Assembly (NCBI GenBank): GCA_035709005.1
Contig: DASTFB010000132.1
Coordinates: 33,737 to 97,736 of the forward strand
Reading direction: 5' to 3'
From: Candidatus Methylomirabilota bacterium
GTDB taxonomy: Bacteria; Methylomirabilota; Methylomirabilia; Rokubacteriales; CSP1-6
Length of the DNA stretch: 64,000 bases
Positions 1 through 8,183 of this stretch are shown piece after piece. A program made the position numbers and the translations under genes. Under the pieces are notes generated by a model, which had not been told where the DNA came from, ran no database searches, and saw nothing but the letters and a program-made list of their open reading frames with translations. How positions within the stretch are numbered: position 1 is the stretch's first letter; every line of letters starts with the position of its first letter.

Positions 1-412
1 CGGCCACGTCGTCGTTCGCGGCCCAGCCCTCGTAACGGATGGCGCACAGCACCGCGGCACGCATCGGCTCGCACATACGCGCCCACGGGATCGGCGGTCC
101 GGCGTGGAGGATCGTTCGGGGTGGCAGCCCGAGGGCCTCCCAGGCTGGACGACAGTCGACCAGCACCGGCTCGCCGTTGACCAGGCGCTCGAACGCCTCG
201 GCATTCGCCGGCTCGATGAGCTGCCGCCGCTCCTGCAGCCGGTCCAGCGCGGCGGCAAGCCTGGGCTCCGCGCCGGCCGGCGGCCGCCAGTCCAGATGAG
301 CCACGGCCACGCCGAGCCGCTCCAGCTCCGCGGCGAAGAGGGGCAGCCCCAGGCTGAGCACTCGCGGCTTGCCGGCGAGCAAGGATCGGTCCGGGCACAT
401 CTTCGGCCCCAT
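1..412 (-). CDS. YlbE-like DUF1116 family protein, N-terminal part (gene runs off the window start); carries an N-terminal segment resembling the C-terminus of E. coli FdrA
   Basis: Minus-strand frame open from the ATG at about 412 down to nt 1. The translation MGPKMCPDRS...TILHAGPPIPWARMCEPMRAAVLCAIRYEGWAANDD matches the conserved HAGPP..W...GPM core of YlbE (DUF1116). The first roughly 60 aa resemble the FdrA C-terminal tail. It is absent from the ORF track because no stop falls inside the window. Confidence 0.5.
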   Translation of the reverse strand, partial: MGPKMCPDRSLLAGKPRVLSLGLPLFAAELERLGVAVAHLDWRPPAGAEPRLAAALDRLQERRQLIEPANAEAFERLVNGEPVLVDCRPAWEALGLPPRTILHAGPPIPWARMCEPMRAAVLCAIRYEGWAANDDVA

Positions 413-438
413 ATTAGAATGCTTCCGGGGTTCGTGGC

Positions 439-1089
439 ATGGCGCGCATCTTCCTGCTCTCGCCGGCGAACTGCTCGGGCATCAGGGCTCGGATGGTGAT
501 GCGCGAGGCAGCGAGCTTCGATCTGGCCCGCAGGCTCCGTCAGGATGACGGAGCCTCGCTCGGCGAAGTGTTCAGCTTCCTGAGCGGGCTCTACTTCCGG
601 GGCAAGCTCGCCTACGCCCGGGCCTTCGCGGCGGCCCCCGATCCCACCTGTGCCCTCACGGGCGAGGGCGTGTTCGTCATCACGCCGGGGTCCGGGCTCT
701 ACCGACCGTCAGCGGCGGTCACCTTGCGGACGCTCCAGGCGTTCGCCCGCGTCGACGTGGATCCCGGCGACCCGCGCTTTCGGCGGCCCCTGGTGGCCGC
801 GGCCCGTCGGGTCCGCGAGCGGATCGGACCACACTGTGAGGTCGTGCTGCTGGGCAGCGTGGCCTCACCGAAGTACGTGGACGTCCTCGGGGCCGTGTTC
901 GGAGACCGGCTCCGGTTCCCGCTCGATTTCGTGGGGCGGGGCGACATGAGCCGCGGCGGCCGCATGCTCCGCTGCGTGGCCGCCGGGCGTGAGCTCGAGT
1001 ACGGTTCCGTGATCGGGGCCGTCGTTCACGGGCCGAGGCCGCCCCGACTGTCGCCGCTCGGGCGAGGCCCACGGGCGGCGTCGCCATGA
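439..1089 (+). CDS. Conserved hypothetical protein (216 aa), translationally coupled (ATGA) to the downstream Prim-Pol gene
   Basis: 216-aa ORF with a plausible composition. Its stop overlaps the start of the 1086..2081 gene. I recognise no family confidently; there is only a weak GRG..G..ML resemblance to YlbF/DUF2877. Confidence 0.45.
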   Translation: MARIFLLSPANCSGIRARMVMREAASFDLARRLRQDDGASLGEVFSFLSGLYFRGKLAYARAFAAAPDPTCALTGEGVFVITPGSGLYRPSAAVTLRTLQAFARVDVDPGDPRFRRPLVAAARRVRERIGPHCEVVLLGSVASPKYVDVLGAVFGDRLRFPLDFVGRGDMSRGGRMLRCVAAGRELEYGSVIGAVVHGPRPPRLSPLGRGPRAASP

Positions 1090-2081
1090 GCCGAGCGGCC
1101 ACGCGCGGCCATCATCCCGCGCGTCGCACGGGCGGGCCCCGCCGCCGGCGGGGTCCGGTCCCGCGGGTGACGATCCCGCGCGCCCGCGCCAGCGTCGTGC
1201 TCACGGTCGGGCAGCGTCAGGTCCAGCTCACCAACCTGGGCAAGCCGTTCTGGCCGCAGCTCGGGATCACCAAGGGCGACCTGCTGCAGTACTACGCGGA
1301 TGTCGCGCCGCTCCTACTGCCCCACGTGCGCGACCGGGCCATGGTCATGCGCCGCTATCCCGACGGCGCCCAGGGGCCCTCGTTCTTCATGAAGCGGGCG
1401 CCGGTGCCCCGGCCGGAGTGGATCGAGACGTGCAGCATCGCCCATGCCTCCGGCAACGTCATCGACTTCCCGCTCATCCAGGATCTGCCGGCGCTGCTCT
1501 GGGTCGTCAACCTGGGCTGCATCGATCTCAATCAGTGGTACGCCCGCTGCGACGACGTGGACCGACCGGACTGGCTGCACTTCGACCTCGACCCCGGCAC
1601 CGCCTCCTTCCCGCAGGTCATCGAGACCGCTCTGATCCTCCGCCAGGCGCTGGACTCGCTCCGGATGCCGAGCTACGTCAAGACCACGGGATCCAAGGGC
1701 CTGCACGTCTACGTGCCGATCGTCCGCGGGCCCCTGCAGAAGGAGGTGTGGGCGGTGGCCAAGGCGCTGGCCCTGGAGCTGGCCAGCCGCCACCCGATGC
1801 TCATGACCGCCGAGTATCGGGTGGCCCGGCGCCCGCCCGGTCGGGTGCTCGTGGATTACAACCAGAACGCCTGGGGGCGTACGCTGGCCTCCATCTACTC
1901 GGTACGACCGCACCCACGCGCCTGCGTGTCGACGCCCGTCACCTGGGACGAGCTCGCCGCGGGCGTCCGCACGGAGGATTTCCGCCTGGACAACGTGCGG
2001 CCGCGGCTGGCCCGACTCGGGGACCTCTGGGCCCCCCTGCTGGCCACCCGCGGCCGCTTCGATCTGCGGCGACTGGGCTGA
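1086..2081 (+). CDS. LigD-type polymerase/primase domain protein (stand-alone Prim-Pol, Prim-PolC-like)
   Basis: 331 aa with the motifs ...YADVAPLLLPHVRDRAMVMRRYPDG...SKGLHVYVPI...VDYNQN.., typical of the NHEJ/BER primase-polymerase domain of LigD. Confidence 0.85.
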   Translation: MSRAATRGHHPARRTGGPRRRRGPVPRVTIPRARASVVLTVGQRQVQLTNLGKPFWPQLGITKGDLLQYYADVAPLLLPHVRDRAMVMRRYPDGAQGPSFFMKRAPVPRPEWIETCSIAHASGNVIDFPLIQDLPALLWVVNLGCIDLNQWYARCDDVDRPDWLHFDLDPGTASFPQVIETALILRQALDSLRMPSYVKTTGSKGLHVYVPIVRGPLQKEVWAVAKALALELASRHPMLMTAEYRVARRPPGRVLVDYNQNAWGRTLASIYSVRPHPRACVSTPVTWDELAAGVRTEDFRLDNVRPRLARLGDLWAPLLATRGRFDLRRLG

Positions 2082-2151
2082 GGTTCACGCGGCAGCTTTG
2101 GGATCCATCCAGAAGAAGCCCAGATGAGGTCCTTGACCGCCAAGTTGACGA

Positions 2152-2388
2152 TCAGCTTGGTGGCCATGCTCGGGTGCCGGACGGCCCATTCGACACCCGG
2201 GTCCCCTTCCAGCGCAGCGTCTTGGCGGCTCGAGCGCTCTGCAGCGCCTCTCCCGCCACGAAGTGGCCGTTCTTCCTGAGCACGTCATCGTAGGCGAAAC
2301 ACTCCTGCATCATCGTGTCCTGCTCGGTTTTCGACATCGCCTCCCACTTCTTCTCATCCATGTATCCGAGACAGAGAAACTTCAACAT
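2152..2388 (-). CDS. YciI-like (DGPF-family) protein, apparently truncated; its C-terminal motifs lie in other frames
   Basis: Reading from the internal Met (MLKFLCLGYMDEKKWEAMSKTEQ...VAGEALQSARAAKTLRWK) this matches the YCII-related domain. The expected DGPF..QLGG..IEV C-terminal half is missing from this frame, and fragments like it (QLGG; DLIWAS..IP) appear in the other two frames between 2085 and 2200. Confidence 0.45.
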   Translation of the reverse strand: MLKFLCLGYMDEKKWEAMSKTEQDTMMQECFAYDDVLRKNGHFVAGEALQSARAAKTLRWKGTRVSNGPSGTRAWPPS

Positions 2389-2474
2389 TGCCTCCCTCGT
2401 GGGTGTCAGGCCGGCTGTCGGCCTCTCGTAGTCAGTCGAACGAGCAGCGTGAGAATCGACAGCGGGGCCCGGGC

Positions 2475-3638
2475 TCACGATCCGGCACGCGCCTCCGGGT
2501 ACGGCCGGCGGCGGTCGCGGGCGCCAAAGACCCGCTCCAGCTCGTAGGCCGGCGTGACCTCCAGCTGGTCGTAGAGGCACTCAGCAGGCCGCTTGTCGGG
2601 GCGCCAGCGCAGGAACTGCGTCGCATGCCGGAAGCGAGAACCCTGCATGTGATCGTAGGCCACCTCGCACACTCGTTCCGGCCGGAGCGGCTCCCAGCTC
2701 AGATCCTTGCCGCGATTCCAACGGCTAGCGGCGCCGGGCAGCCGCTGCCCCCCGGCGCTCACGTCCTCCTCGACCTCGGCCCAATGCCGCCAGGGATGGT
2801 TCTCCAGCGCGCGGTCGCGCAACGGCGCCAGCTCGGCGACGAGCCGGGTTCGCACCGCGTTGCTGAAGGCGGAAGCGACACCGACATGGTGCAGCGTGCC
2901 GGTCTCATCGTAGAGGCCGAGCAGCAGCGAGCCGACCATCGTGCCCGCTCCCTTCTTGTGCCAGCGAAAGCCGGCGACGACGCAGTCGGCGGTCCGCACA
3001 TGCTTCACCTTGATCATCGTGCGCTCGCCGGCCCGATAGGGCGCCTCCAGGCGCTTGGCCATGACGCCGTCCAGCCCGGCGCCCTCGAAACGACGAAACC
3101 AGTCCTCGGCCAGGGCCCGATCCCGCGTGGCTGGCGACAGGTGCACCGGCGGCGGCGCGCCGGCCAGGACTTGCTCCAGCCGGTGGCGCCGCACGGCCAG
3201 CGGCACCTGGCGCAAATCCTCGTCGTCCAGGGCGAGAAGGTCCCAGGCTACGAACGACGCGGGGGACTGCGCGGCCAGCAGCTTCACCCGGGAAGCGGCC
3301 GGATGGATGCGCAACAGCAGGGCCGCGAAATCGAGGCCCCCGCTGCCGACGATGACGATCTCGCCGTCGACCACGCAGCGCTGGGGCAGCGCGGCGGCCA
3401 GCGGAGCCACCAGCTCGGGGAAGTATCGATTCATGGGCTTCTCGTCACGGCTCTGCAGCAGGACCTCGTCGCCGTCCCGGAACACCAGCGTTCGAAAGCC
3501 GTCCCATTTGGGCTCGAACTGCCACCCGGCGCCGCCGGGCAAGGCGTCGGCGGCTTTCGACAACATCGGCGCGATGGGTGGCGCGAAGGGCAGTCGGGCG
3601 AACTCCCCGCCGTGGTCGCGGGCCGACGGCGTCGTCAT
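2475..3638 (-). CDS. ligC: ATP-dependent DNA ligase, stand-alone ligase plus OB domain (LigC-like)
   Basis: 387 aa from the internal Met MTTPSARDHGG.. The adenylation motif I, KWDGFR, is present in ...QFEPKWDGFRTLVF... The ATG at 3638 overlaps the TGA of the upstream sigma gene. Confidence 0.85.
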   Translation of the reverse strand: MTTPSARDHGGEFARLPFAPPIAPMLSKAADALPGGAGWQFEPKWDGFRTLVFRDGDEVLLQSRDEKPMNRYFPELVAPLAAALPQRCVVDGEIVIVGSGGLDFAALLLRIHPAASRVKLLAAQSPASFVAWDLLALDDEDLRQVPLAVRRHRLEQVLAGAPPPVHLSPATRDRALAEDWFRRFEGAGLDGVMAKRLEAPYRAGERTMIKVKHVRTADCVVAGFRWHKKGAGTMVGSLLLGLYDETGTLHHVGVASAFSNAVRTRLVAELAPLRDRALENHPWRHWAEVEEDVSAGGQRLPGAASRWNRGKDLSWEPLRPERVCEVAYDHMQGSRFRHATQFLRWRPDKRPAECLYDQLEVTPAYELERVFGARDRRRPYPEARAGS

Positions 3639-4885
3639 CCGGGCAACTCGGCCAGCCGTCGCTCGAGAAACCTCCGCTGCGGTTCCTGCCGCGTGAGGCT
3701 GAGGGCCCGGGCGTAGGAGGCTCGGGCCTCGGCCGTCCGGCCCAGTCGTCGGCACAGCTCGGCCCGCGCGGAGTGGGCCAGGGCATAGTTGTCGAGATTG
3801 CCCCGGGCGAGGATCGCCTCGATGAGGGCCAGTCCGGCCAGGGGGCCGTCGCGCATGGCCACGGCCGCGGCGCGGTTCAGCTCGACCACTGGCGAGGGAT
3901 CCACGCGGACCAGAACGTCGTAGAGGCTGACGATCTGTGACCAGTCCGTCGCGGCCGCGGTGGGCGCCTCGGCGTGTACCGCTGCGATCGCCGCCTGCAG
4001 CGTGTACGGGCCGAACCGGCGCGAGGCGAGTGCGCGCTCCAACAGCGTCAGTCCCTCGGCGATCTGATGGCGATTCCAGCGCGAACGGTCCTGCTCGTCG
4101 AGGAGGACCAGCTCGCCGGTCGGCGACGTGCGCGCGGCGCGTCGCGATTCGTGCAACAGCATCAGGGCCAGCAGTCCCTCGGCTTCCGGCTCCGGCAGCA
4201 GCGCGACCAGCAGGCGCCCCAGACGGATCGCCTCGGCCGAGAGGTCGGGCCGCGTCAGCGAGGAGCCCGACGAAGCGGAATATCCTTCGTTGAAGACCAG
4301 GTAGATGACGTGCAGTACGATGTCCAGCCGCTCGGGCAGCTCGGCGCGGGACGGCACCTGGTAGGGAATACGCGCCTCCCGGATCTTCGTCTTGGCGCGC
4401 ACCACTCGCTGGGCCACCGTGGGCGCGGCACTGAGGAAGGCGCGCGCGATCTCCTCGGTGGTGAGGCCGCAGACTTCGCGCAGGGTCAGCGCCACCTGGG
4501 CATCGGCCGGCAGGGCGGGATGGCAGCACGTGAAGATCAAGCGCAGCCGGTCATCTTCGAGTGTCTCGTCGTCGCGGCTGGTGGCGTCCGCGGCCTGGGC
4601 GTCGAGCCGTTCGGCGAGCTCGGCCAGCGAGGCGTCGAACCGGACGCGTCGGCGCATGCCGTCGATGGCCTTGAACCGGCCGGCCGACACCAGCCAGGCC
4701 CGGGGATTGGCCGGCAGGCCGTCGCGCGGCCATTGTGCCACCGCCGCGGCGAAGGCGTCGTGCAGCGCCTCCTCGGCGAGGTCGAAATCCCCGAGCACCC
4801 GGATGAGGGTCGCCAGCACGCGGCGAGACTCGGAACGGTAGAGGCTCTCCACCACTTCGCGCGTCTGATCCGACGTCTGCTCTGT
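3635..4885 (-). CDS. ECF sigma factor with a long TPR-like C-terminal extension (about 416 aa; ECF42-like architecture)
   Basis: The sigma-2 region (VVESLYRSESRRVLATLIRVLGDFDLAEEALHDAF..) and sigma-4 region (ALTLREVCGLTTEEIARAFL..RVVRAKTKIR) are followed by a roughly 230-aa extension. The probable start is a TTG at about 4885 (MTEQTSDQ...) preceded by GGAGAG; the ORF track extends to a GTG at 4948. Confidence 0.8.
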   Translation of the reverse strand, partial: TEQTSDQTREVVESLYRSESRRVLATLIRVLGDFDLAEEALHDAFAAAVAQWPRDGLPANPRAWLVSAGRFKAIDGMRRRVRFDASLAELAERLDAQAADATSRDDETLEDDRLRLIFTCCHPALPADAQVALTLREVCGLTTEEIARAFLSAAPTVAQRVVRAKTKIREARIPYQVPSRAELPERLDIVLHVIYLVFNEGYSASSGSSLTRPDLSAEAIRLGRLLVALLPEPEAEGLLALMLLHESRRAARTSPTGELVLLDEQDRSRWNRHQIAEGLTLLERALASRRFGPYTLQAAIAAVHAEAPTAAATDWSQIVSLYDVLVRVDPSPVVELNRAAAVAMRDGPLAGLALIEAILARGNLDNYALAHSARAELCRRLGRTAEARASYARALSLTRQEPQRRFLERRLAELPG

Positions 4886-5216
4886 CAACGCGCGCGCTCT
4901 CCAGGCCAGGACCGCCGGCGCTCCATGATGGGCCGCACCTCGACACACCCCGGGAGCCGGGGCGGGATCCCGGAGGCCACCCGGGCCTCGAGGTGGCTCG
5001 GGGGCCAGGCGTCCAGGCTCATGGGTGCTCCGCGTCGTGGACGAACAGCTCGGGACGCGAGATAGTCGCGGGAAGAGCCGGAATCGACAAGGATGTCGAT
5101 TTGGGCCCGGACCGGTCGACTAGACCGTAGAGCGATGACGACCGTGGGGCGGGCCGCGCCAGTCGTGCCGACAACGGCCGGCCCCGGCTGGCATCAGGCT
5201 CGGGAAGGAGCAGGAC

Positions 5217-6332
5217 ATGAGCGGAGTACGGGTTCTGGTCGGTACGCGCAAGGGTGCGTTCGTCCTCACGTCCGACGCCAAGCGCACACGGTGGGACGTC
5301 AGCGGTCCTCACTTCGGGGGATGGGAGCTCTATCACCTCAAAGGTTCTCCCGCTGACCCGAATCGCCTTTATGCCTCGCAGTCGAGCGGCTGGTTCGGGC
5401 AGCTGATCCAACGCTCCAACGACGGCGGCAAGACGTGGGAGCCGGTCGGTAACAAGTTCGTCTACGAAGGCGTTCCCGGCACTCATCAGTGGTACGACGG
5501 CTCGCCCCACCCCTGGGCATTCGCCCGGGTCTGGCACCTCGAACCCTCCCTGTCCGATCCGGATACAGTCTACGCCGGGGTCGAAGACGCCGCCTTGTTC
5601 CGATCGGTCGACGGCGGGCAAACCTGGCAAGAGCTTCCCGGCCTCCGGCGCCACAGCTCCGCGTCCACCTGGCAGCCGGGCGCGGGCGGAATGTGTCTGC
5701 ACACGATCCTGCTGGATCCCCAGGCCCCCGGCCGGATCTTCGTCGCCATCTCGGCGGCGGGCGTGTTCCGCACCGACGACGCCGGCGAGACGTGGCGGCC
5801 GATCAACCGGGGCTTGCATTCGGAAGGCATCCCCGACCCGAACGCGGAGGTGGGCCACTGCGTTCACCGCATCACGATGCACCGATCGCGTCCGGGCGTG
5901 CTGTTCATGCAGAAGCACTGGGACGTCATGCGCAGTGACGACGCGGGCACTTCTTGGCACGACGTCGGCGAGAACTTGCCCAGTGATTTCGGCTTCCCCA
6001 TCGAGGTGCACGCACACGAGCCGGACACCATCTACGTCGTTCCGATCAAGAGTGACTCGGAGCACTATCCGCCCGACGGAAAGCTCCGCGTCTATCGCAG
6101 CCGGACGGGCGGGCACGAGTGGGAGGCGCTCACGACGGGCCTGCCCCAACGCGACTGCTACGTCAACGTGCTCCGCGACGCGATGGCCGTCGACGCGCTG
6201 GACCCGTGTGGCGTGTACTTCGGGACCACCGGCGGGCAGGTCTATGCCTCCGCCGATGCCGGCGACCACTGGGCTCCCGTCGTCCGCGACCTGCCGGCGG
6301 TGGTGTCCGTGGAAGCCCAGACCCTGCCATGA
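5217..6332 (+). CDS. BNR/Asp-box repeat beta-propeller protein (sialidase-like fold, function unknown)
   Basis: 371 aa with at least six S-x-D-x-G-x-T-W Asp-box repeats ([48 protein letters not shown]). A GGAAGGAG RBS lies 6 nt upstream. Confidence 0.8.
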
Positions 6333-6625
6333 TCCGGGTCGTGCTCCCGGCCCACTTGCGAGCTCTCGCTCGCGTCGACGGTGAGGTGCACCTGGACGTG
6401 GGCGGGCGGGCCACGCAGCGCTCGGTGCTCGATGCGCTCGAGGCCCGCTATCCGACGCTGCGGGGGACGATCCGCGACCACGCCACCCAGCAGCGCCGGG
6501 CGCTGGTGAGGATCTTCGCTTGCCAGGAGGACCTGTCTCACGAGTCGCCGGACGCCCCGCTGCCCGAGCCGGTCGTCGCCGGCGCCGAGCCCTTGCTGAT
6601 CGTCGGCGCCATGGCCGGCGGGTAG
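6329..6625 (+). CDS. MoaD/ThiS-family ubiquitin-like sulfur-carrier-type protein ending in Gly-Gly
   Basis: 98 aa ([24 protein letters not shown]...LIVGAMAGG). Its ATG overlaps the TGA of the BNR gene. It has the beta-grasp-like pattern and a C-terminal GG. Confidence 0.7.
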
Positions 6626-6671: not shown

Positions 6672-8183
6672 TCAGCCGCTGACGGCGCGGGCGATCCGCG
6701 CGGCCAGCCGGGCGGCCTGGGCGTTCGACGGCATGACGATGACGCCGTGGGCGGTGAGCGTGGCCACCTGGGCCTGCCGTCCCTGGGGGTCGCCGTCAGT
6801 GCCCACGACGCAGGCGACGATGGCCAGCCCGCGCTGCCGCGCACGCGCGTCGGTGCGCGCCCGCTCGAGCGCGGGGACCAGCTCGCCGGCGGGATCAGGG
6901 TGGGCTCCGTAACCCAGGATGACGTCCAGCAACAGGATGGCCGTGGCCGGATCGGCGGCCTCCCGGACGATCCACTCCCGGCGAACGCTCCCGTCGATCA
7001 TCGGGTGAGGCCGACCCACGGTGAACATGTCCTCGCCGAGGTCGACGACGCGGTGAGCGCCGGCGCCCGACGTCACGTCGGGAGCGACGTCGGGCAGCAC
7101 CGCTGCCAGAATGGCCCGCGCCTCCCAGGCCAGCGTGCCTCCCGCAAAGACGCCGCTGATGCAGCGTTGCCCCGGCGCCAGCCCGCGCGCGGCCTCGGCC
7201 ACGAGCCGCTCCACCTCGCCGGCGGGCATGGTGAATTCCGTCGCGATCGGACGCTCCTTCCTGGCCTGGGCCACCGCGGCCCGCGCGCAGTCCTCGAGAG
7301 AACCCGATCCCGAGCCGACGAAGTGCGCGACGCAAGGCTTGCCGAGCCGTCCGATCTCCGACGCCAGCCGGGCCGCCACAGCCTTTCCGGGTGGCTTGCC
7401 GATCACGCACAGGACTTCGGTAGCCTCGTCCTCGGCGAGCACGACGAGCGCCCGCGACATCATGAGTCCACCGACCGCATCCGTCAGATCGCGCCCGCCT
7501 ACGCCGATGCCGTGCGAGATGCCTTCGCCGTAGCGGGCGACGAGCGTGCTCACCTCTTGCAACCCCGTCCCCGAAGCCGCGGCGATGCCGATCCGACCGC
7601 GGGGCACGGCATTGGCGAATCCTAGCGGCACGCCGTTGAGCAGCGCCGTCCCGCAGTCGGGGCCCATGAGAAACAGCCCCTGACCGAGGGCCAGACGCTT
7701 GAGCTCGAGCTCGGCCTCGACGGGAACGTTGTCGCTGAAGAGCATGACGTGCAGTCCCATATGCAGTGCCTTGCGAGCCTCCGCTGCTGCGTAGAGCCCG
7801 GGGACGGAGATGAGCGCGAGGCTGGCATCGGGAAGGGTGCGGATCGCCGACGTCAGCGTGCGGGCGCGGCGGTCCGGGGCGCCCGACAAGCCCCCCCGCG
7901 CTCGCGGTGGGCCAGTCAGCAGCGCGGTCCGGGCCGCCGCTTCAGCGCCGCTGGCCGCCGCCTCGTCGGCCGCCGCGACCGCGATGAGCAGATCGGCGGG
8001 CGCCGTGTCCGGGGCGTCCGGAGGCAGGAGGCCGGCGTCGGCAAGCAGGGCGCGGTTCTGCGGCGTGCCCATCATGGCGGCCGCCCGCTCGACGCCGGGA
8101 ACGGCCTCCATGTCGCGAGTGAGCCGCATGAGGGTCACCGAGTCGTGATACGCGCTCCGCCAGACGAAGTTCCAGACGGGCAT
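6672..8183 (-). CDS. fdrA: FdrA-family protein (succinyl-CoA-synthetase-alpha-like; oxamate carbamoyltransferase subunit homolog)
   Basis: 503 aa with strong similarity to E. coli FdrA throughout (SVTLMRLTRDME..VMMGTPQNRALL, LALISVPGLYAA, MGPDCGTALLNGVPLGFANAVPRGRIGIAAASGTGLQE). It lacks the last roughly 50 aa of E. coli FdrA. Confidence 0.85.
   Translation of the reverse strand: MPVWNFVWRSAYHDSVTLMRLTRDMEAVPGVERAAAMMGTPQNRALLADAGLLPPDAPDTAPADLLIAVAAADEAAASGAEAAARTALLTGPPRARGGLSGAPDRRARTLTSAIRTLPDASLALISVPGLYAAAEARKALHMGLHVMLFSDNVPVEAELELKRLALGQGLFLMGPDCGTALLNGVPLGFANAVPRGRIGIAAASGTGLQEVSTLVARYGEGISHGIGVGGRDLTDAVGGLMMSRALVVLAEDEATEVLCVIGKPPGKAVAARLASEIGRLGKPCVAHFVGSGSGSLEDCARAAVAQARKERPIATEFTMPAGEVERLVAEAARGLAPGQRCISGVFAGGTLAWEARAILAAVLPDVAPDVTSGAGAHRVVDLGEDMFTVGRPHPMIDGSVRREWIVREAADPATAILLLDVILGYGAHPDPAGELVPALERARTDARARQRGLAIVACVVGTDGDPQGRQAQVATLTAHGVIVMPSNAQAARLAARIARAVSG

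What the first reader, a model, noticed from the sequence alone, without database searches (positions are those of the whole stretch)
439..4948. ECF42-like sigma factor translationally coupled to a LigC-type DNA ligase, next to a stand-alone Prim-Pol and a decayed DGPF (YciI) gene
The TGA of the sigma gene overlaps the ATG of the ligase (3635-3638), so the two are co-expressed. ECF42-type sigma factors, with a long TPR tail, are classically linked to DGPF/YciI proteins whose function is unknown. Here a base-excision-repair/NHEJ-type ligase sits between the sigma gene and the YciI-like gene. A LigD-type primase-polymerase, coupled to an unknown 216-aa gene, lies convergent to them. This places an orphan stress sigma factor together with a LigC/Prim-PolC-type repair module, a combination I have not seen described.
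Basis: partly seen in the sequence, partly recalled or inferred. Interest (0 to 1): 0.55.

Follow-up and report, generated by a model that had tools for sequence, protein, structure and literature searches.

The report
Stress sigma factor coupled to LigC
In a soil Methylomirabilota genome, the gene for a poorly understood ECF42-type stress sigma factor overlaps by four bases the gene for a LigC DNA-repair ligase; similar pairings recur in a few other bacteria, which gives a testable link between this sigma family and DNA gap repair, and the unknown 216-aa neighbour belongs to an unnamed family that travels with repair polymerases and ligases.

Summary
The sigma stop codon and the ligase ATG share ATGA at 3635-3638. 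The sigma factor has the ECF42 architecture. The ligase passes NCBI's LigC model. The YCII gene is a real remnant: a 98%-identical relative carries an intact 127-aa copy, and the window lacks about 351 bp of it.

Three corrections apply. The sigma gene probably starts at TTG 4888, giving 417 aa. The Prim-Pol is not Prim-PolC, because it lacks Loop 3. It belongs instead to a subfamily that is nearly always preceded by the 216-aa gene.

The sigma-to-ligC order is kept in relatives whose sigma is 87-98% identical. Among 80 species-level ligC loci, ECF42 sigma genes of other subgroups sit directly upstream of ligC in one locus and of Prim-PolC in two, against about 0.24 expected. A clade-specific ECF42-type promoter, TGTCGAT-N16-TCGAC, marks the YCII gene, a divergent BNR operon and, with a shortened spacer, the sigma-ligC operon.

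My best reading is a sigma-ligC operon, probably autoregulated, that ties nick sealing to an ECF42 stress response. This arrangement is a minority one, seen in about 5% of ligC loci, and it has not been tested experimentally.

The 216-aa family has 1765 clusters, no Pfam model and no clear structural match. It may be a new accessory factor of Prim-Pol/LigC repair.

The parts
439..1089 (+). p216, a 216-aa protein of a conserved but unnamed family. It is the first gene of the p216-Prim-Pol operon.
   Evidence: No hit in Pfam, NCBIfam, PADLOC or PHROGs. More than 8000 homologues were found, and every one that carries a source name is called 'hypothetical protein'. The family has 1765 clusters at 50% identity. 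The AlphaFold model has pLDDT 89.9. In 37 of 50 metagenome loci the gene is followed directly by a Prim-Pol or a LigC-type ligase.
1086..2081 (+). Stand-alone NHEJ-type primase-polymerase of the LigD-Pol type. It has no Loop 3. An alternative start lies at GTG 1167.
   Evidence: PF21686 E 3e-84 and TIGR02778 at 226.9 bits, above the cut-off. ATGA overlap with p216 at 1086-1089. The PDB matches to Prim-PolC 6sa0 (179 bits, chain residues 3-291 only) and to Methanocella NHEJ polymerase 5dmu (178 bits) are about equal.
2082..2167 (-). Possible remnant of the 5' end of a VOC/glyoxalase-type gene (MATKLIVNLAVKDL...). It runs into the antisense strand of the Prim-Pol 3' end.
   Evidence: Seen in the translation, and the same remnant is present in L004. 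Calling it a VOC N-terminus rests on my recollection of that family's typical N-terminus and was not tested with a profile.
2152..2388 (-). Truncated YCII (DGPF) gene. The first ~66 codons are retained, followed by junction sequence and a stop codon.
   Evidence: Pfam YCII E 0.0034, profile positions 2-41 of 95. It is 96% identical over 71 residues to the intact 127-aa YCII of L004/L007.
2171..2191 (.). Deletion junction. About 351 bp are missing relative to L004, and a 21-nt piece is the reverse complement of the sequence that flanks the break in L004.
   Evidence: blastn coordinates and direct sequence comparison.
2435..2461 (-). ECF42-type promoter motif TGTCGATTCTCACGCTGCTCGTTCGAC, 46 nt upstream of the YCII start.
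   Evidence: A weight matrix built only from sites in other loci scores it 28.3 bits, the best score in the 64-kb window. The best unrelated site scores 13.1. The same motif precedes YCII genes in L011, L015, L028 and L067.
2475..3638 (-). ligC, an ATP-dependent DNA ligase with the catalytic core only (387 aa). It carries a 13-residue N-terminal extension created by use of the overlapping ATG.
   Evidence: NF006078/PRK08224 at 522.8 bits. KWDG motif. Homologues are 374 aa and begin MRLPF, whereas the window reads ARLPF at that position.
3635..3638 (-). ATGA overlap of the sigma stop codon and the ligase start codon.
   Evidence: The same overlap occurs in L007, L172 and L028. L174 has an 11-nt spacer instead.
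3635..4888 (-). ECF42-type sigma factor, 417 aa from TTG 4888. The open frame extends upstream to GTG 4948.
   Evidence: Sigma70_r2, Sigma70_r4_2, DUF6596 and TPR_2. Homologues are 417 aa.
5065..5089 (-). Candidate autoregulated promoter of the sigma-ligC operon, TGTCGATTC-N-CGAC. Its spacer is 15 nt here.
   Evidence: The alignment shows the same element with a 16-nt spacer in L007 and the canonical 17-nt spacer in L172.
5094..5120 (+). ECF42-type promoter motif facing the divergent BNR operon.
   Evidence: 23.5 bits with the matrix built from other loci, the second best score in the window. It is conserved in L007 and L172.
5217..6332 (+). BNR/Sortilin-like repeat protein of 371 aa, predicted to be an ECF42 target.
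   Evidence: Pfam BNR and Sortilin-Vps10 hits. NF045728 matches only partially, at 80.5 bits against a cut-off of 175. It lies next to the sigma gene in L007 and in the contig of P0242.
6329..6625 (+). 98-aa protein ending in Gly-Gly, with a weak resemblance to ubiquitin-like SAMP1/MoaD proteins. Its start overlaps the BNR gene by 4 nt.
   Evidence: ORF translation. NF041918 SAMP1 E 0.0055, below its cut-off. No Pfam hit. Called as a 98-aa gene in relatives.

Best explanation
The locus is an ECF42 sigma-factor operon that has taken in a LigC DNA ligase.

The sigma gene (TTG 4888 to TGA 3635) and ligC (ATG 3638 to 2475) form one transcript, and ligase translation is coupled to termination of sigma translation. 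This is inferred from the four-base overlap and from the absence of any room for a promoter between the genes.

The operon is probably read from an ECF42-type promoter 177 nt upstream of the sigma start, so sigma activity would raise its own level and that of LigC together. The same sigma is predicted to drive the downstream YCII gene, which is truncated in this strain, and the divergent operon encoding the BNR protein and the Gly-Gly-ended small protein. These links are inferred from the motif.

The convergent operon encoding p216 and a LigD-type Prim-Pol would supply the gap-filling polymerase. I found no ECF42 motif in front of that operon.

Taken together, the locus would tie gap filling and nick sealing to whatever stress activates this ECF42 factor. 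The expected lesions are oxidative or electrophile damage processed through abasic sites, by analogy with mycobacterial LigC. The activating signal, the activity of the promoters and the repair function are all untested.
For: Gene identities and the overlap are established.

Conservation within the clade:
- Sigma at 98% identity (L007 and four further contigs from separate samples), 90% (L172 and two more) and 87% (L174) is always followed by ligC.
- L174 has an 11-nt spacer and the canonical MRLPF ligase start. The overlap in the window is therefore a later tightening of an existing pair.

Recurrence elsewhere, among 80 species-level ligC loci:
- L028 has a sigma only 56% identical (blastp; 52% by tblastn) with the same ATGA overlap onto ligC. 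It also has a convergent operon running from an ECF42-type promoter through YCII and DoxX to Prim-PolC.
- L047 and L067 have YCII, sigma and Prim-PolC in one direction, with a 4-nt overlap in L047.
- L014 has a YCII-sigma pair divergent from ligC.
- These sigmas fall into at least four subgroups.
- Direct adjacency was seen three times against 0.24 expected, Poisson P 0.002. With an upper-bound background density P is 0.036. Counting L028 and L067 as one event gives about 0.02 (and my own recalculation).

Promoter evidence:
- TGTCGAT-N16-TCGAC precedes YCII genes in several genomes. It resembles the mapped S. meliloti RpoE10 promoters, TGTCGG-N17-CGTC (PMC6180224).
- A matrix built from other loci picks out exactly two sites in the 64-kb window.
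- The element upstream of sigma has the canonical 17-nt spacer in L172.
- Five of the ten strong sites in 1.01 Mb of ligC loci lie at the borders of the ligC/Prim-PolC pair.

Background from the literature:
- The LigC complex repairs oxidative base damage and is induced in stationary phase in mycobacteria (PMC5663958).
- ECF42 factors need their TPR extension for activity and are typically linked to YCII proteins (PMC8999054).
Against: - The pairing is rare. Only about 5% of ligC loci have a sigma next to them, and 58 of 75 show only the ligC/Prim-PolC pair.
- The nearest sigma relatives outside the clade (81-82% identity; L010, L011) have no ligase.
- In the window the promoter spacer upstream of sigma is 15 nt rather than 17, so autoregulation may be weak or lost here.
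- The YCII partner, which has been proposed to take part in ECF42 regulation, is truncated in this strain.
- No ECF42 motif precedes p216-Prim-Pol, so the polymerase may not be co-regulated with the ligase.
- In S. meliloti the ECF42 factor did not raise expression of its own operon (PMC6180224).
- The statistics rest on few events and on a rough background density.
- There are no expression data at all.
Confidence: 0.5

Rival explanations
1. Neutral gene-order accident. The convergent end of the ligC/Prim-PolC pair is a rearrangement-prone spot in these genomes, and ECF42 genes are numerous. On this view a sigma gene landed next to ligC by chance, and the two are co-transcribed without any selected regulatory logic.
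For: - The region shows gene decay and rearrangement: a truncated YCII gene, DoxX and VOC remnants, and a complex deletion junction.
- The whole 6.2-kb block sits between fdrA and ylbE homologues, which are adjacent genes in E. coli.
- Most ligC loci and most close sigma relatives lack the pairing.
- The enrichment is modest, P about 0.002-0.04.
Against: - Sigmas of four different subgroups are found next to ligC or Prim-PolC, in four distinct arrangements.
- Three of these junctions are 4-nt overlaps (window, L028, L047).
- Within clade II the linkage persists although the ligases have diverged to 63-83% identity to the window's.
- In L174 compared with the window, the junction has become tighter rather than decaying.
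Confidence: 0.3
2. A locus in decay. In this particular strain the module is being lost. The YCII partner is deleted and the spacer of the sigma promoter has shrunk, so the sigma-ligC unit may be silent or expressed only at a basal level, whatever it did in the ancestor.
For: - A 351-bp deletion is present relative to 98%-identical contigs that carry an intact YCII gene.
- The promoter spacer is 15 nt in the window, 16 in L007 and 17 in L172.
Against: - The sigma, ligase, Prim-Pol and p216 reading frames are all intact, and the catalytic motifs are present.
- L174 lacks a YCII gene between ligC and Prim-Pol yet keeps the sigma-ligC pair.
- The deletion could also be an assembly artefact.
Confidence: 0.12
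3. Independent expression. The ligase is driven mainly by its own promoter inside the 3' part of the sigma gene, and the overlap is merely compact packing of two genes.
For: Nothing supports this directly. Promoters of this phylum are uncharacterised, and the sigma-70 consensus scan is uninformative at 70% G+C: it found 0 sites against 0.3 expected.
Against: - No ECF42-type or sigma-70-like site lies inside the sigma gene.
- The canonical ligase start has been lost, and translation must now begin at the ATG that overlaps the sigma stop codon. This favours coupled expression.
Confidence: 0.08

Closest known systems
ECF42 sigma factor/YCII (DGPF) modules: S. venezuelae Sven_0747, Sven_4377 and Sven_7131; S. 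meliloti RpoE10; P. putida ECF-10
   Same: - The architecture is sigma2 and sigma4 followed by a C-terminal extension of about 225 residues with a TPR.
- No anti-sigma gene is nearby.
- A YCII gene sits in the operon neighbourhood.
- The promoter is of the TGTCGx-N17-CGxC type.
- Predicted targets include VOC/glyoxalase-type and other small proteins of unknown function.
   Different: - A DNA ligase is inserted between the sigma gene and YCII and is translationally coupled to sigma.
- In other loci a Prim-PolC is the last gene of the YCII-sigma operon.
- No DNA-repair gene is mentioned for ECF42 in the papers I could read.
Mycobacterial LigC/Prim-PolC excision-repair complex (Plocinski 2017; Brissett 2020)
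   Same: - The ligase meets NCBI's LigC equivalog model and consists of the catalytic core only.
- In 58 of 75 related loci it is paired with a true Prim-PolC orthologue (350 bits to 6sa0, alignment covering Loop 3).
   Different: - In the window the partner polymerase lacks Loop 3 and belongs to the p216-linked subfamily.
- The ligase is expressed from a sigma-factor operon.
- No BER glycosylase gene was seen in the 8 kb examined.
Split LigD/NHEJ operons (separate Pol, Lig and PE genes with Ku)
   Same: - The Prim-Pol passes the ligD_pol domain model.
- Operons of p216, Prim-Pol and ligase exist in L158 and L159 and look like a LigD split into separate genes.
   Different: - tblastn found no Ku in the window or in the 160 related loci (L012-L171). 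No Pfam PE/LigD_N hit was obtained on the window's proteins or the few relatives scanned; most related loci were not searched for PE.
- p216 occupies the position where an accessory or end-processing component would be expected, yet it is unrelated in sequence to Ku and to PE.
YaaA/DUF328 (E. coli peroxide-stress DNA-binding protein, PDB 5caj), compared with p216
   Same: - Four short motifs occur in the same order in both proteins: SPA, SGLY, VV-L-S--Y and RG-MSR (my reading of the sequences printed).
- YaaA binds DNA and protects against DNA damage.
   Different: - Profile methods find nothing beyond a 7-residue match.
- p216 is about 40 residues shorter.

Membership tests
ECF42 group of ECF sigma factors | Sigma-70 regions 2 and 4 only, with no region 3 or region 1 | tested here: met
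   PF04542 at residues 36-103 and PF08281 at residues 138-189 of the 437-aa frame. No other sigma region was hit.
ECF42 group of ECF sigma factors | C-terminal extension of about 200 residues containing tetratricopeptide repeats | tested here: met
   DUF6596 at residues 207-306 (E 9.6e-39). A TPR_2 hit at residues 389-419 has E 4.4e-05 but scores 23.7 bits, below its cut-off of 27. The feature is as described in PMC8999054.
ECF42 group of ECF sigma factors | A YCII-related (DGPF) gene in the immediate neighbourhood and no anti-sigma gene | tested here: met
   A YCII remnant lies at 2152-2388, and an intact 127-aa YCII gene occupies the same place in L004 and L007. No anti-sigma-like ORF lies next to the sigma gene.
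ECF42 group of ECF sigma factors | Target promoter of the TGTCGx (-35) ... CGxC (-10) type | tested here: met
   TGTCGAT-N16-TCGAC is found upstream of YCII and BNR in the window, and upstream of YCII genes in L011, L015, L028 and L067. Compare S. meliloti RpoE10, TGTCGG-N17-CGTC. Its function was not tested.
ECF42 group of ECF sigma factors | Placement in the ECF42 clade by the ECF classification profiles (ECFfinder / ECF Hub) | not testable with these tools
LigC (stand-alone ATP-dependent DNA ligase C) | Match to the LigC equivalog model above its cut-off | tested here: met
   NF006078/PRK08224 at 522.8 bits against a cut-off of 296. The LigD ligase-domain model TIGR02779 scores 159, below its cut-off of 227.75. 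Equating PRK08224 with ligC comes from my own knowledge; the tool names the model only 'ATP-dependent DNA ligase'.
LigC (stand-alone ATP-dependent DNA ligase C) | Catalytic core only (adenylation and OB domains), with no fused Pol or PE domain, and an intact KxDG motif | tested here: met
   Only PF01068 and PF04679 are hit, in a protein of 387 aa. KWDG is at residue 44.
LigC (stand-alone ATP-dependent DNA ligase C) | Operon or neighbourhood association with Prim-PolC | tested here: not met
   The convergent polymerase in the window is not a Prim-PolC. In 58 of 75 related loci the association does hold.
Prim-PolC | AEP/LigD-type Prim-Pol catalytic core | tested here: met
   PF21686 E 3e-84. The DLD motif is at 167-169 and GSKGLHVY is present.
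Prim-PolC | C-terminal Loop 3 extension (M. smegmatis residues 313-333), which is required for short-gap filling | tested here: not met
   The alignment to 6sa0 covers chain residues 3-291 only, and the protein ends 13 residues after the aligned part. The score to Prim-PolC (179 bits) equals that to the archaeal NHEJ polymerase 5dmu (178 bits). The ligC-linked polymerase of L028 aligns to residues 5-346 at 350 bits. Loop 3 is as defined in PMC7442782.
YCII / DGPF protein | Full-length YCII domain (PF03795) above the gathering score | tested here: not met
   The window copy scores 18.3 bits against a cut-off of 24 and matches profile positions 2-41 only. It is a truncated remnant of a genuine YCII gene. 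Pfam YCII is on record for the 127-aa gene of the near-identical contigs, and 71 residues are 96% identical.
DUF328 / YaaA (considered for p216) | Sequence-profile match to the family | tested here: not met
   No Pfam hit even at E 10. hhalign probability is 0.4-0.5%. 5caj was not found by hmmsearch of the PDB at E 10.
DUF328 / YaaA (considered for p216) | Shared fold | tested here: inconclusive
   [not shown]
LigD phosphoesterase domain or Ku (considered for p216) | Pfam LigD_N or Ku domain | tested here: not met
   No Pfam or NCBIfam hit for p216. No Ku-like structure appears among the fold matches.

The most novel reading that the evidence does not exclude
Some subgroups of ECF42 sigma factors, a very large family with no assigned physiological role, may control a DNA-damage tolerance and gap-repair response that includes LigC and Prim-PolC. 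Separately, p216 may be a previously unrecognised third component of bacterial Prim-Pol/LigC repair: a DNA-binding or end-processing factor that fills the role Ku or the phosphoesterase domain plays for LigD. The evidence for p216 is its position as first gene of Prim-Pol and/or LigC operons in 74% of informative loci, and its fusion to P-loop kinase domains of the AAA_33 type in some members.
Probability: 0.27. Interest if true: 0.75.

Novelty: new variant of a known kind. Interest (0 to 1): 0.55.

Why it matters
ECF42 is one of the largest ECF groups, with more than 10,000 sequences according to the reclassification preprint read. Its signal and its physiological role are both unknown. The regulon members known so far are small proteins of unknown function.

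LigC/Prim-PolC repair has no known regulator beyond induction in stationary phase. A recurrent physical coupling between the two gives each field a concrete experiment. One can overexpress or delete the sigma factor and measure ligC and Prim-PolC expression, together with survival after organic peroxides or alkylating agents.

The p216 family is a second lead. It is widespread, unnamed, confidently folded and has no clear structural relative, and it is linked to repair polymerases and ligases as tightly as Ku is to LigD. This kind of genomic link is what led to the discovery of bacterial NHEJ.

If neither idea holds up, the result is still a clean annotation of an unusual operon.

Tried and rejected
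- **Defence system or mobile island.** No PADLOC or PHROGs hits. No flanking repeats, and no integrase in the ORF list. G+C content is uniform at 65-74%. Rejected as a recognisable mobile element, although the block does split fdrA from ylbE.
- **RNA element in the long sigma leader.** No Rfam match at E 1 or better.
- **The 45-aa ORF upstream of sigma (4885-5022).** It was called only in the contigs carrying the 98%-identical sigma (P0241), including L007, and not in the 90% relative. I treat it as probably spurious.
- **Sigma-70 promoter and terminator scan.** Uninformative at this G+C content.
- **The strict S. meliloti-type pattern TGTCGR-N16-18-CGTC.** It gave no site in the locus. The clade uses CGAC at the -10 position.
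- **p216 as a YaaA homologue.** Profile methods fail, so I keep it only as a lead.
- **AFDB fold libraries.** These were not available.
- **The primary ECF42 paper (PMC6182237).** It is not held in the library, and the reclassification paper has no supplements held. I therefore could not check the published ECF42 neighbourhood tables for ligase or Prim-Pol domains.

Full report
**Source and layout**

The window is about 70% G+C. The exact sequence of its 216-aa protein is HET9492413.1 from a Methylomirabilota (Rokubacteria) MAG, on a 162,755-bp contig. The closest ligase and sigma homologues are also labelled Rokuibacteriota.

The genes in window coordinates are:
- the 5' part of an allG/ylbE homologue (1-382, minus strand);
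- p216 (439-1089, plus strand);
- Prim-Pol (1086-2081, plus);
- a 390-bp convergent spacer that holds gene remnants;
- ligC (2475-3638, minus);
- the sigma factor (3635-4888, minus);
- a 328-bp divergent control region;
- a BNR-repeat protein (5217-6332, plus);
- a 98-aa protein ending in Gly-Gly (6329-6625, plus);
- fdrA (6672-8183, minus).

**Checking the observation**

- The sigma TGA and the ligase ATG share ATGA at 3635-3638.
- The sigma factor has regions 2 and 4, DUF6596 and a C-terminal TPR.
- The ligase scores 522.8 bits against NF006078/PRK08224, whose cut-off is 296, and it falls below the cut-off of the LigD ligase-domain model.
- The polymerase matches PF21686 and passes TIGR02778.
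- p216 and Prim-Pol also share an ATGA, at 1086-1089.

The 'decayed YciI' is real, and its origin can be traced. Contig L004, 98% identical to window 1-3005, has an intact 127-aa YCII gene. The window lacks about 351 bp of it. At the junction, 21 nt (2171-2191) are the reverse complement of the sequence that flanks the break in L004. This is either a complex deletion or an assembly chimera.

Two corrections follow.
- Sigma homologues are almost uniformly 417 aa, so TTG 4888 is the likely start.
- Ligase homologues are 374 aa and begin MRLPF. The window reads ARLPF at that position, so the ligase must use the upstream ATG that overlaps the sigma stop codon. This gives it a 13-residue extension.

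**Is the sigma-ligase pairing recurrent?**

Within the clade it is.
- Five contigs from five samples with a 98%-identical sigma show sigma followed by ligC with a 4-nt overlap. The two contigs that extend past ligC also carry an intact YCII gene.
- The 90% relative shows the BNR gene, then sigma, then ligC with the overlap.
- The 87% relative, L174, shows sigma, an 11-nt spacer, ligC with the canonical start, and a convergent Prim-Pol 92% identical to the window's.

The pair therefore predates the overlap, and the junction has become tighter over time. The next closest sigmas (81-82%; L010, L011) have no ligase. One follows three YCII genes and the other sits beside a glyoxalase gene.

Seen from the ligase side, a scan of GTDB species representatives returned 80 ligC loci at 60-87% identity.
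- The standard arrangement is ligC convergent with a long Prim-Pol, in 58 of 75 loci that have enough downstream DNA.
- That long polymerase is a true Prim-PolC orthologue. The L028 copy scores 350 bits to M. smegmatis Prim-PolC (6sa0), and the alignment covers Loop 3.

ECF42 sigma genes lie at the border of this pair in four loci.
- L028 has sigma followed by ligC, again through an ATGA overlap. It also has a convergent operon running from an ECF42-type promoter through YCII and DoxX to Prim-PolC, with 17-nt and 8-nt gaps.
- L047 has YCII, sigma and Prim-PolC in one direction, with a 4-nt overlap.
- L067 has the promoter, YCII, sigma and Prim-PolC in one direction.
- L014 has a YCII-sigma pair divergent from ligC.

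By pairwise identity these sigmas belong to different subgroups. The window clade is one. L028, L067 and L040 form another, at 81-83% to each other. L047 and L014 are each separate.

I estimated a background density of 2.8 ECF42 genes per Mb from the non-adjacent flanks and from unrelated loci. Three direct adjacencies against 0.24 expected gives Poisson P 0.002. The conservative figure is 0.036, and treating L028 and L067 as one event gives about 0.02. The association is therefore real but weak in frequency, at about 5% of ligC loci.

**Promoters**

The S. meliloti ECF42 factor RpoE10 uses TGTCGG-N17-CGTC (PMC6180224). That exact pattern is absent from the locus. The relaxed pattern TGTCGR-N15-18-CGWC occurs 12 times in the window, and three of those are in this locus.

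Comparing loci gave a clade consensus of TGTCGAT-N16-TCGAC upstream of YCII genes in L011, L015, L028 and L067 and upstream of a glyoxalase gene in L010. A weight matrix built only from those foreign sites scores two window sites at 28.3 bits (2461-2435, upstream of YCII) and 23.5 bits (5094-5120, facing the BNR operon). Nothing else independent scores above 13.1; the two 13.9 scores are the reverse strands of those same two sites.

The element upstream of sigma (5089-5065) has the same -35 half, TGTCGATTC, and a CGAC -10. Its spacer is 15 nt in the window, 16 in L007 and the canonical 17 in L172. This supports autoregulation of sigma-ligC in the clade, and it raises the possibility that the promoter is weakened in this strain.

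Across 1.01 Mb of ligC loci there are only ten strong sites, and five of them lie at the borders of the ligC/Prim-PolC pair. In L013 and L020 the site drives a 301-aa ORF whose N-terminus looks VOC/PhnB-like (by eye; not profile-tested) and that is divergent from Prim-PolC. ECF42 regulon genes and the LigC pair are thus habitual neighbours in these bacteria.

**The polymerase and p216**

The window's Prim-Pol is 35-46% identical to the ligC-linked Prim-PolCs. It aligns to 6sa0 only over residues 3-291, and it matches an archaeal NHEJ polymerase equally well. It therefore lacks Loop 3, the feature that adapts Prim-PolC to short gaps.

It belongs to a subfamily that travels with p216. Among 50 metagenome loci with at least 500 nt downstream of a p216 gene, 31 have this Prim-Pol (50-75% identical, mostly 60-75%) and 6 have a ligase immediately downstream on the same strand. 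The one such ligase scanned (L153) is LigC-type. L158 and L159 have p216, Prim-Pol and ligase in a row, and the L159 ligase is also LigC-type.

p216 has no hit in any family library. The family has 1765 clusters at 50% identity. Its conserved motifs are FLLSPA, SGLYFRGKLAY, VVLLGS-A--KY and FVGRGDMSRGG.

Four of ten unusually long family members are fusions to an AAA_33 P-loop kinase domain, in either order. I read p216 as a candidate accessory factor of Prim-Pol/LigC repair, either DNA-binding or end-processing. This is an inference from gene context only.

**How it most likely works**

What the sequence shows:
- one compact sigma-ligC unit, conserved across a clade;
- a convergent p216-Prim-Pol operon;
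- ECF42-type motifs at three places in the locus.

What is inferred:
- the sigma factor activates its own operon and therefore ligC;
- it also activates the YCII gene (now a remnant) and the BNR operon;
- LigC seals nicks after gap filling, by analogy with mycobacteria, where the LigC complex handles oxidative base damage and is induced in stationary phase.

The co-occurring predicted targets are YCII, DoxX, VOC/glyoxalase proteins and, in S. meliloti, glyoxalase-like proteins. They suggest a response to reactive small molecules, and DNA gap repair would be a sensible part of such a response.

The main rival is neutral co-location in a rearrangement-prone region. It is supported by the low frequency of the pairing and by the visible gene decay. 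It is weakened by the variety of independent arrangements and by the repeated 4-nt overlaps.

**Novelty**

No paper in the searchable library connects ECF42 with a ligase or a Prim-Pol. The primary ECF42 paper and the neighbourhood tables could not be read.

I class the locus as a new variant of a known kind: an ECF42/YCII module that has recruited LigC. It also carries a possibly new protein family, p216, attached to a known repair system.

Noticed in passing
window 2171-2191 (compare L004 2710-3082): The ~351-bp deletion that truncates YCII has a junction in which 21 nt (CGGGTGCCGGACGGCCCATTC) are the reverse complement of the sequence flanking the break in the intact relative. This could be a templated or fold-back repair scar, or an assembly chimera.
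   Followed up: partly
window 1-382 and 6672-8183; E. coli L176: The whole 6.2-kb block (p216 through the 98-aa gene) lies between homologues of fdrA/allF and ylbE/allG, both on the minus strand. In E. coli K-12 these are adjacent genes of one cluster (fdrA-ylbE-ylbF-ybcF). The block looks like an insertion into that operon, but no repeats or integrase were found.
   Followed up: partly
window 5094-6625: An ECF42-type promoter motif faces an operon encoding a BNR/Sortilin-like repeat protein and a 98-aa protein that ends in Gly-Gly, with a weak SAMP1/MoaD-like hit. The same pair sits beside the sigma gene in the 98% and 90% relatives.
   Followed up: partly
proteins P0371, P0404, P0374, P0375 (p216 family): Some family members are fused to an AAA_33 P-loop kinase domain, at either the N- or the C-terminus. 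One member (P0466) is fused to a GNAT acetyltransferase, and one apparent MurJ fusion (P0499) is probably a gene-call artefact.
   Followed up: partly
L158 4570-7256; L159 2124-4740; L142, L148, L149, L151, L153, L155, L168: Co-directional operons of p216, Prim-Pol and a ligase exist, as do operons of p216 and a ligase alone. The two ligases scanned (L153, L159) are LigC-type. This is a second kind of LigC module, distinct from the convergent ligC/Prim-PolC pair.
   Followed up: partly
L013 10481-11475; L020 10492-11481: In the standard ligC/Prim-PolC loci, a strong ECF42-type promoter site in the spacer next to Prim-PolC points away from it, toward a 301-aa ORF (N-terminus MQVQPYLFFEGRCQEALE...) that looks VOC/PhnB-like to me; this was not tested with a profile.
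   Followed up: partly
window 5065-5089; L007 2743-2768; L172 (alignment A3): The spacer of the promoter-like element upstream of sigma differs by single bases in C/G runs: 15 nt in the window, 16 in L007 and 17 in L172. This could tune or disable autoregulation between strains.
   Followed up: partly
L004 2626-2853; window 2082-2167: Further gene debris lies in the convergent spacer. L004 has a 75-aa fragment of a DoxX_2 protein, and both sequences carry the first ~14 codons of a VOC-like gene. L028 has intact YCII, DoxX and Prim-PolC in that order, which may resemble the ancestral state.
   Followed up: partly
L010 1284-7495: A sigma paralogue 82% identical to the window's has no ligase, but a Ku gene and an SNF2-family helicase lie 1-7 kb upstream of it.
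   Followed up: no
record titles of L012-L091: Loci whose LigC is 75-87% identical to the window's are labelled Thermoanaerobaculia, Alphaproteobacteria, Vicinamibacterales, Dehalococcoidia and so on. The NCBI names of these MAGs are probably unreliable, so 'different phyla' cannot be read from the titles.
   Followed up: no
window 4885-5022 (minus strand): A 45-aa ORF whose TGA overlaps the sigma TTG start was called as a gene in the contigs carrying the 98%-identical sigma (including L007) but not in the 90% relative. It is probably spurious, though it sits in an unusually long sigma leader of about 175 nt.
   Followed up: partly
window 1997-2057: An imperfect 29-nt inverted repeat with a 3-nt loop lies inside the last 85 nt of the Prim-Pol gene, at the convergent junction. 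It may act as a transcription-terminating hairpin for both operons.
   Followed up: no
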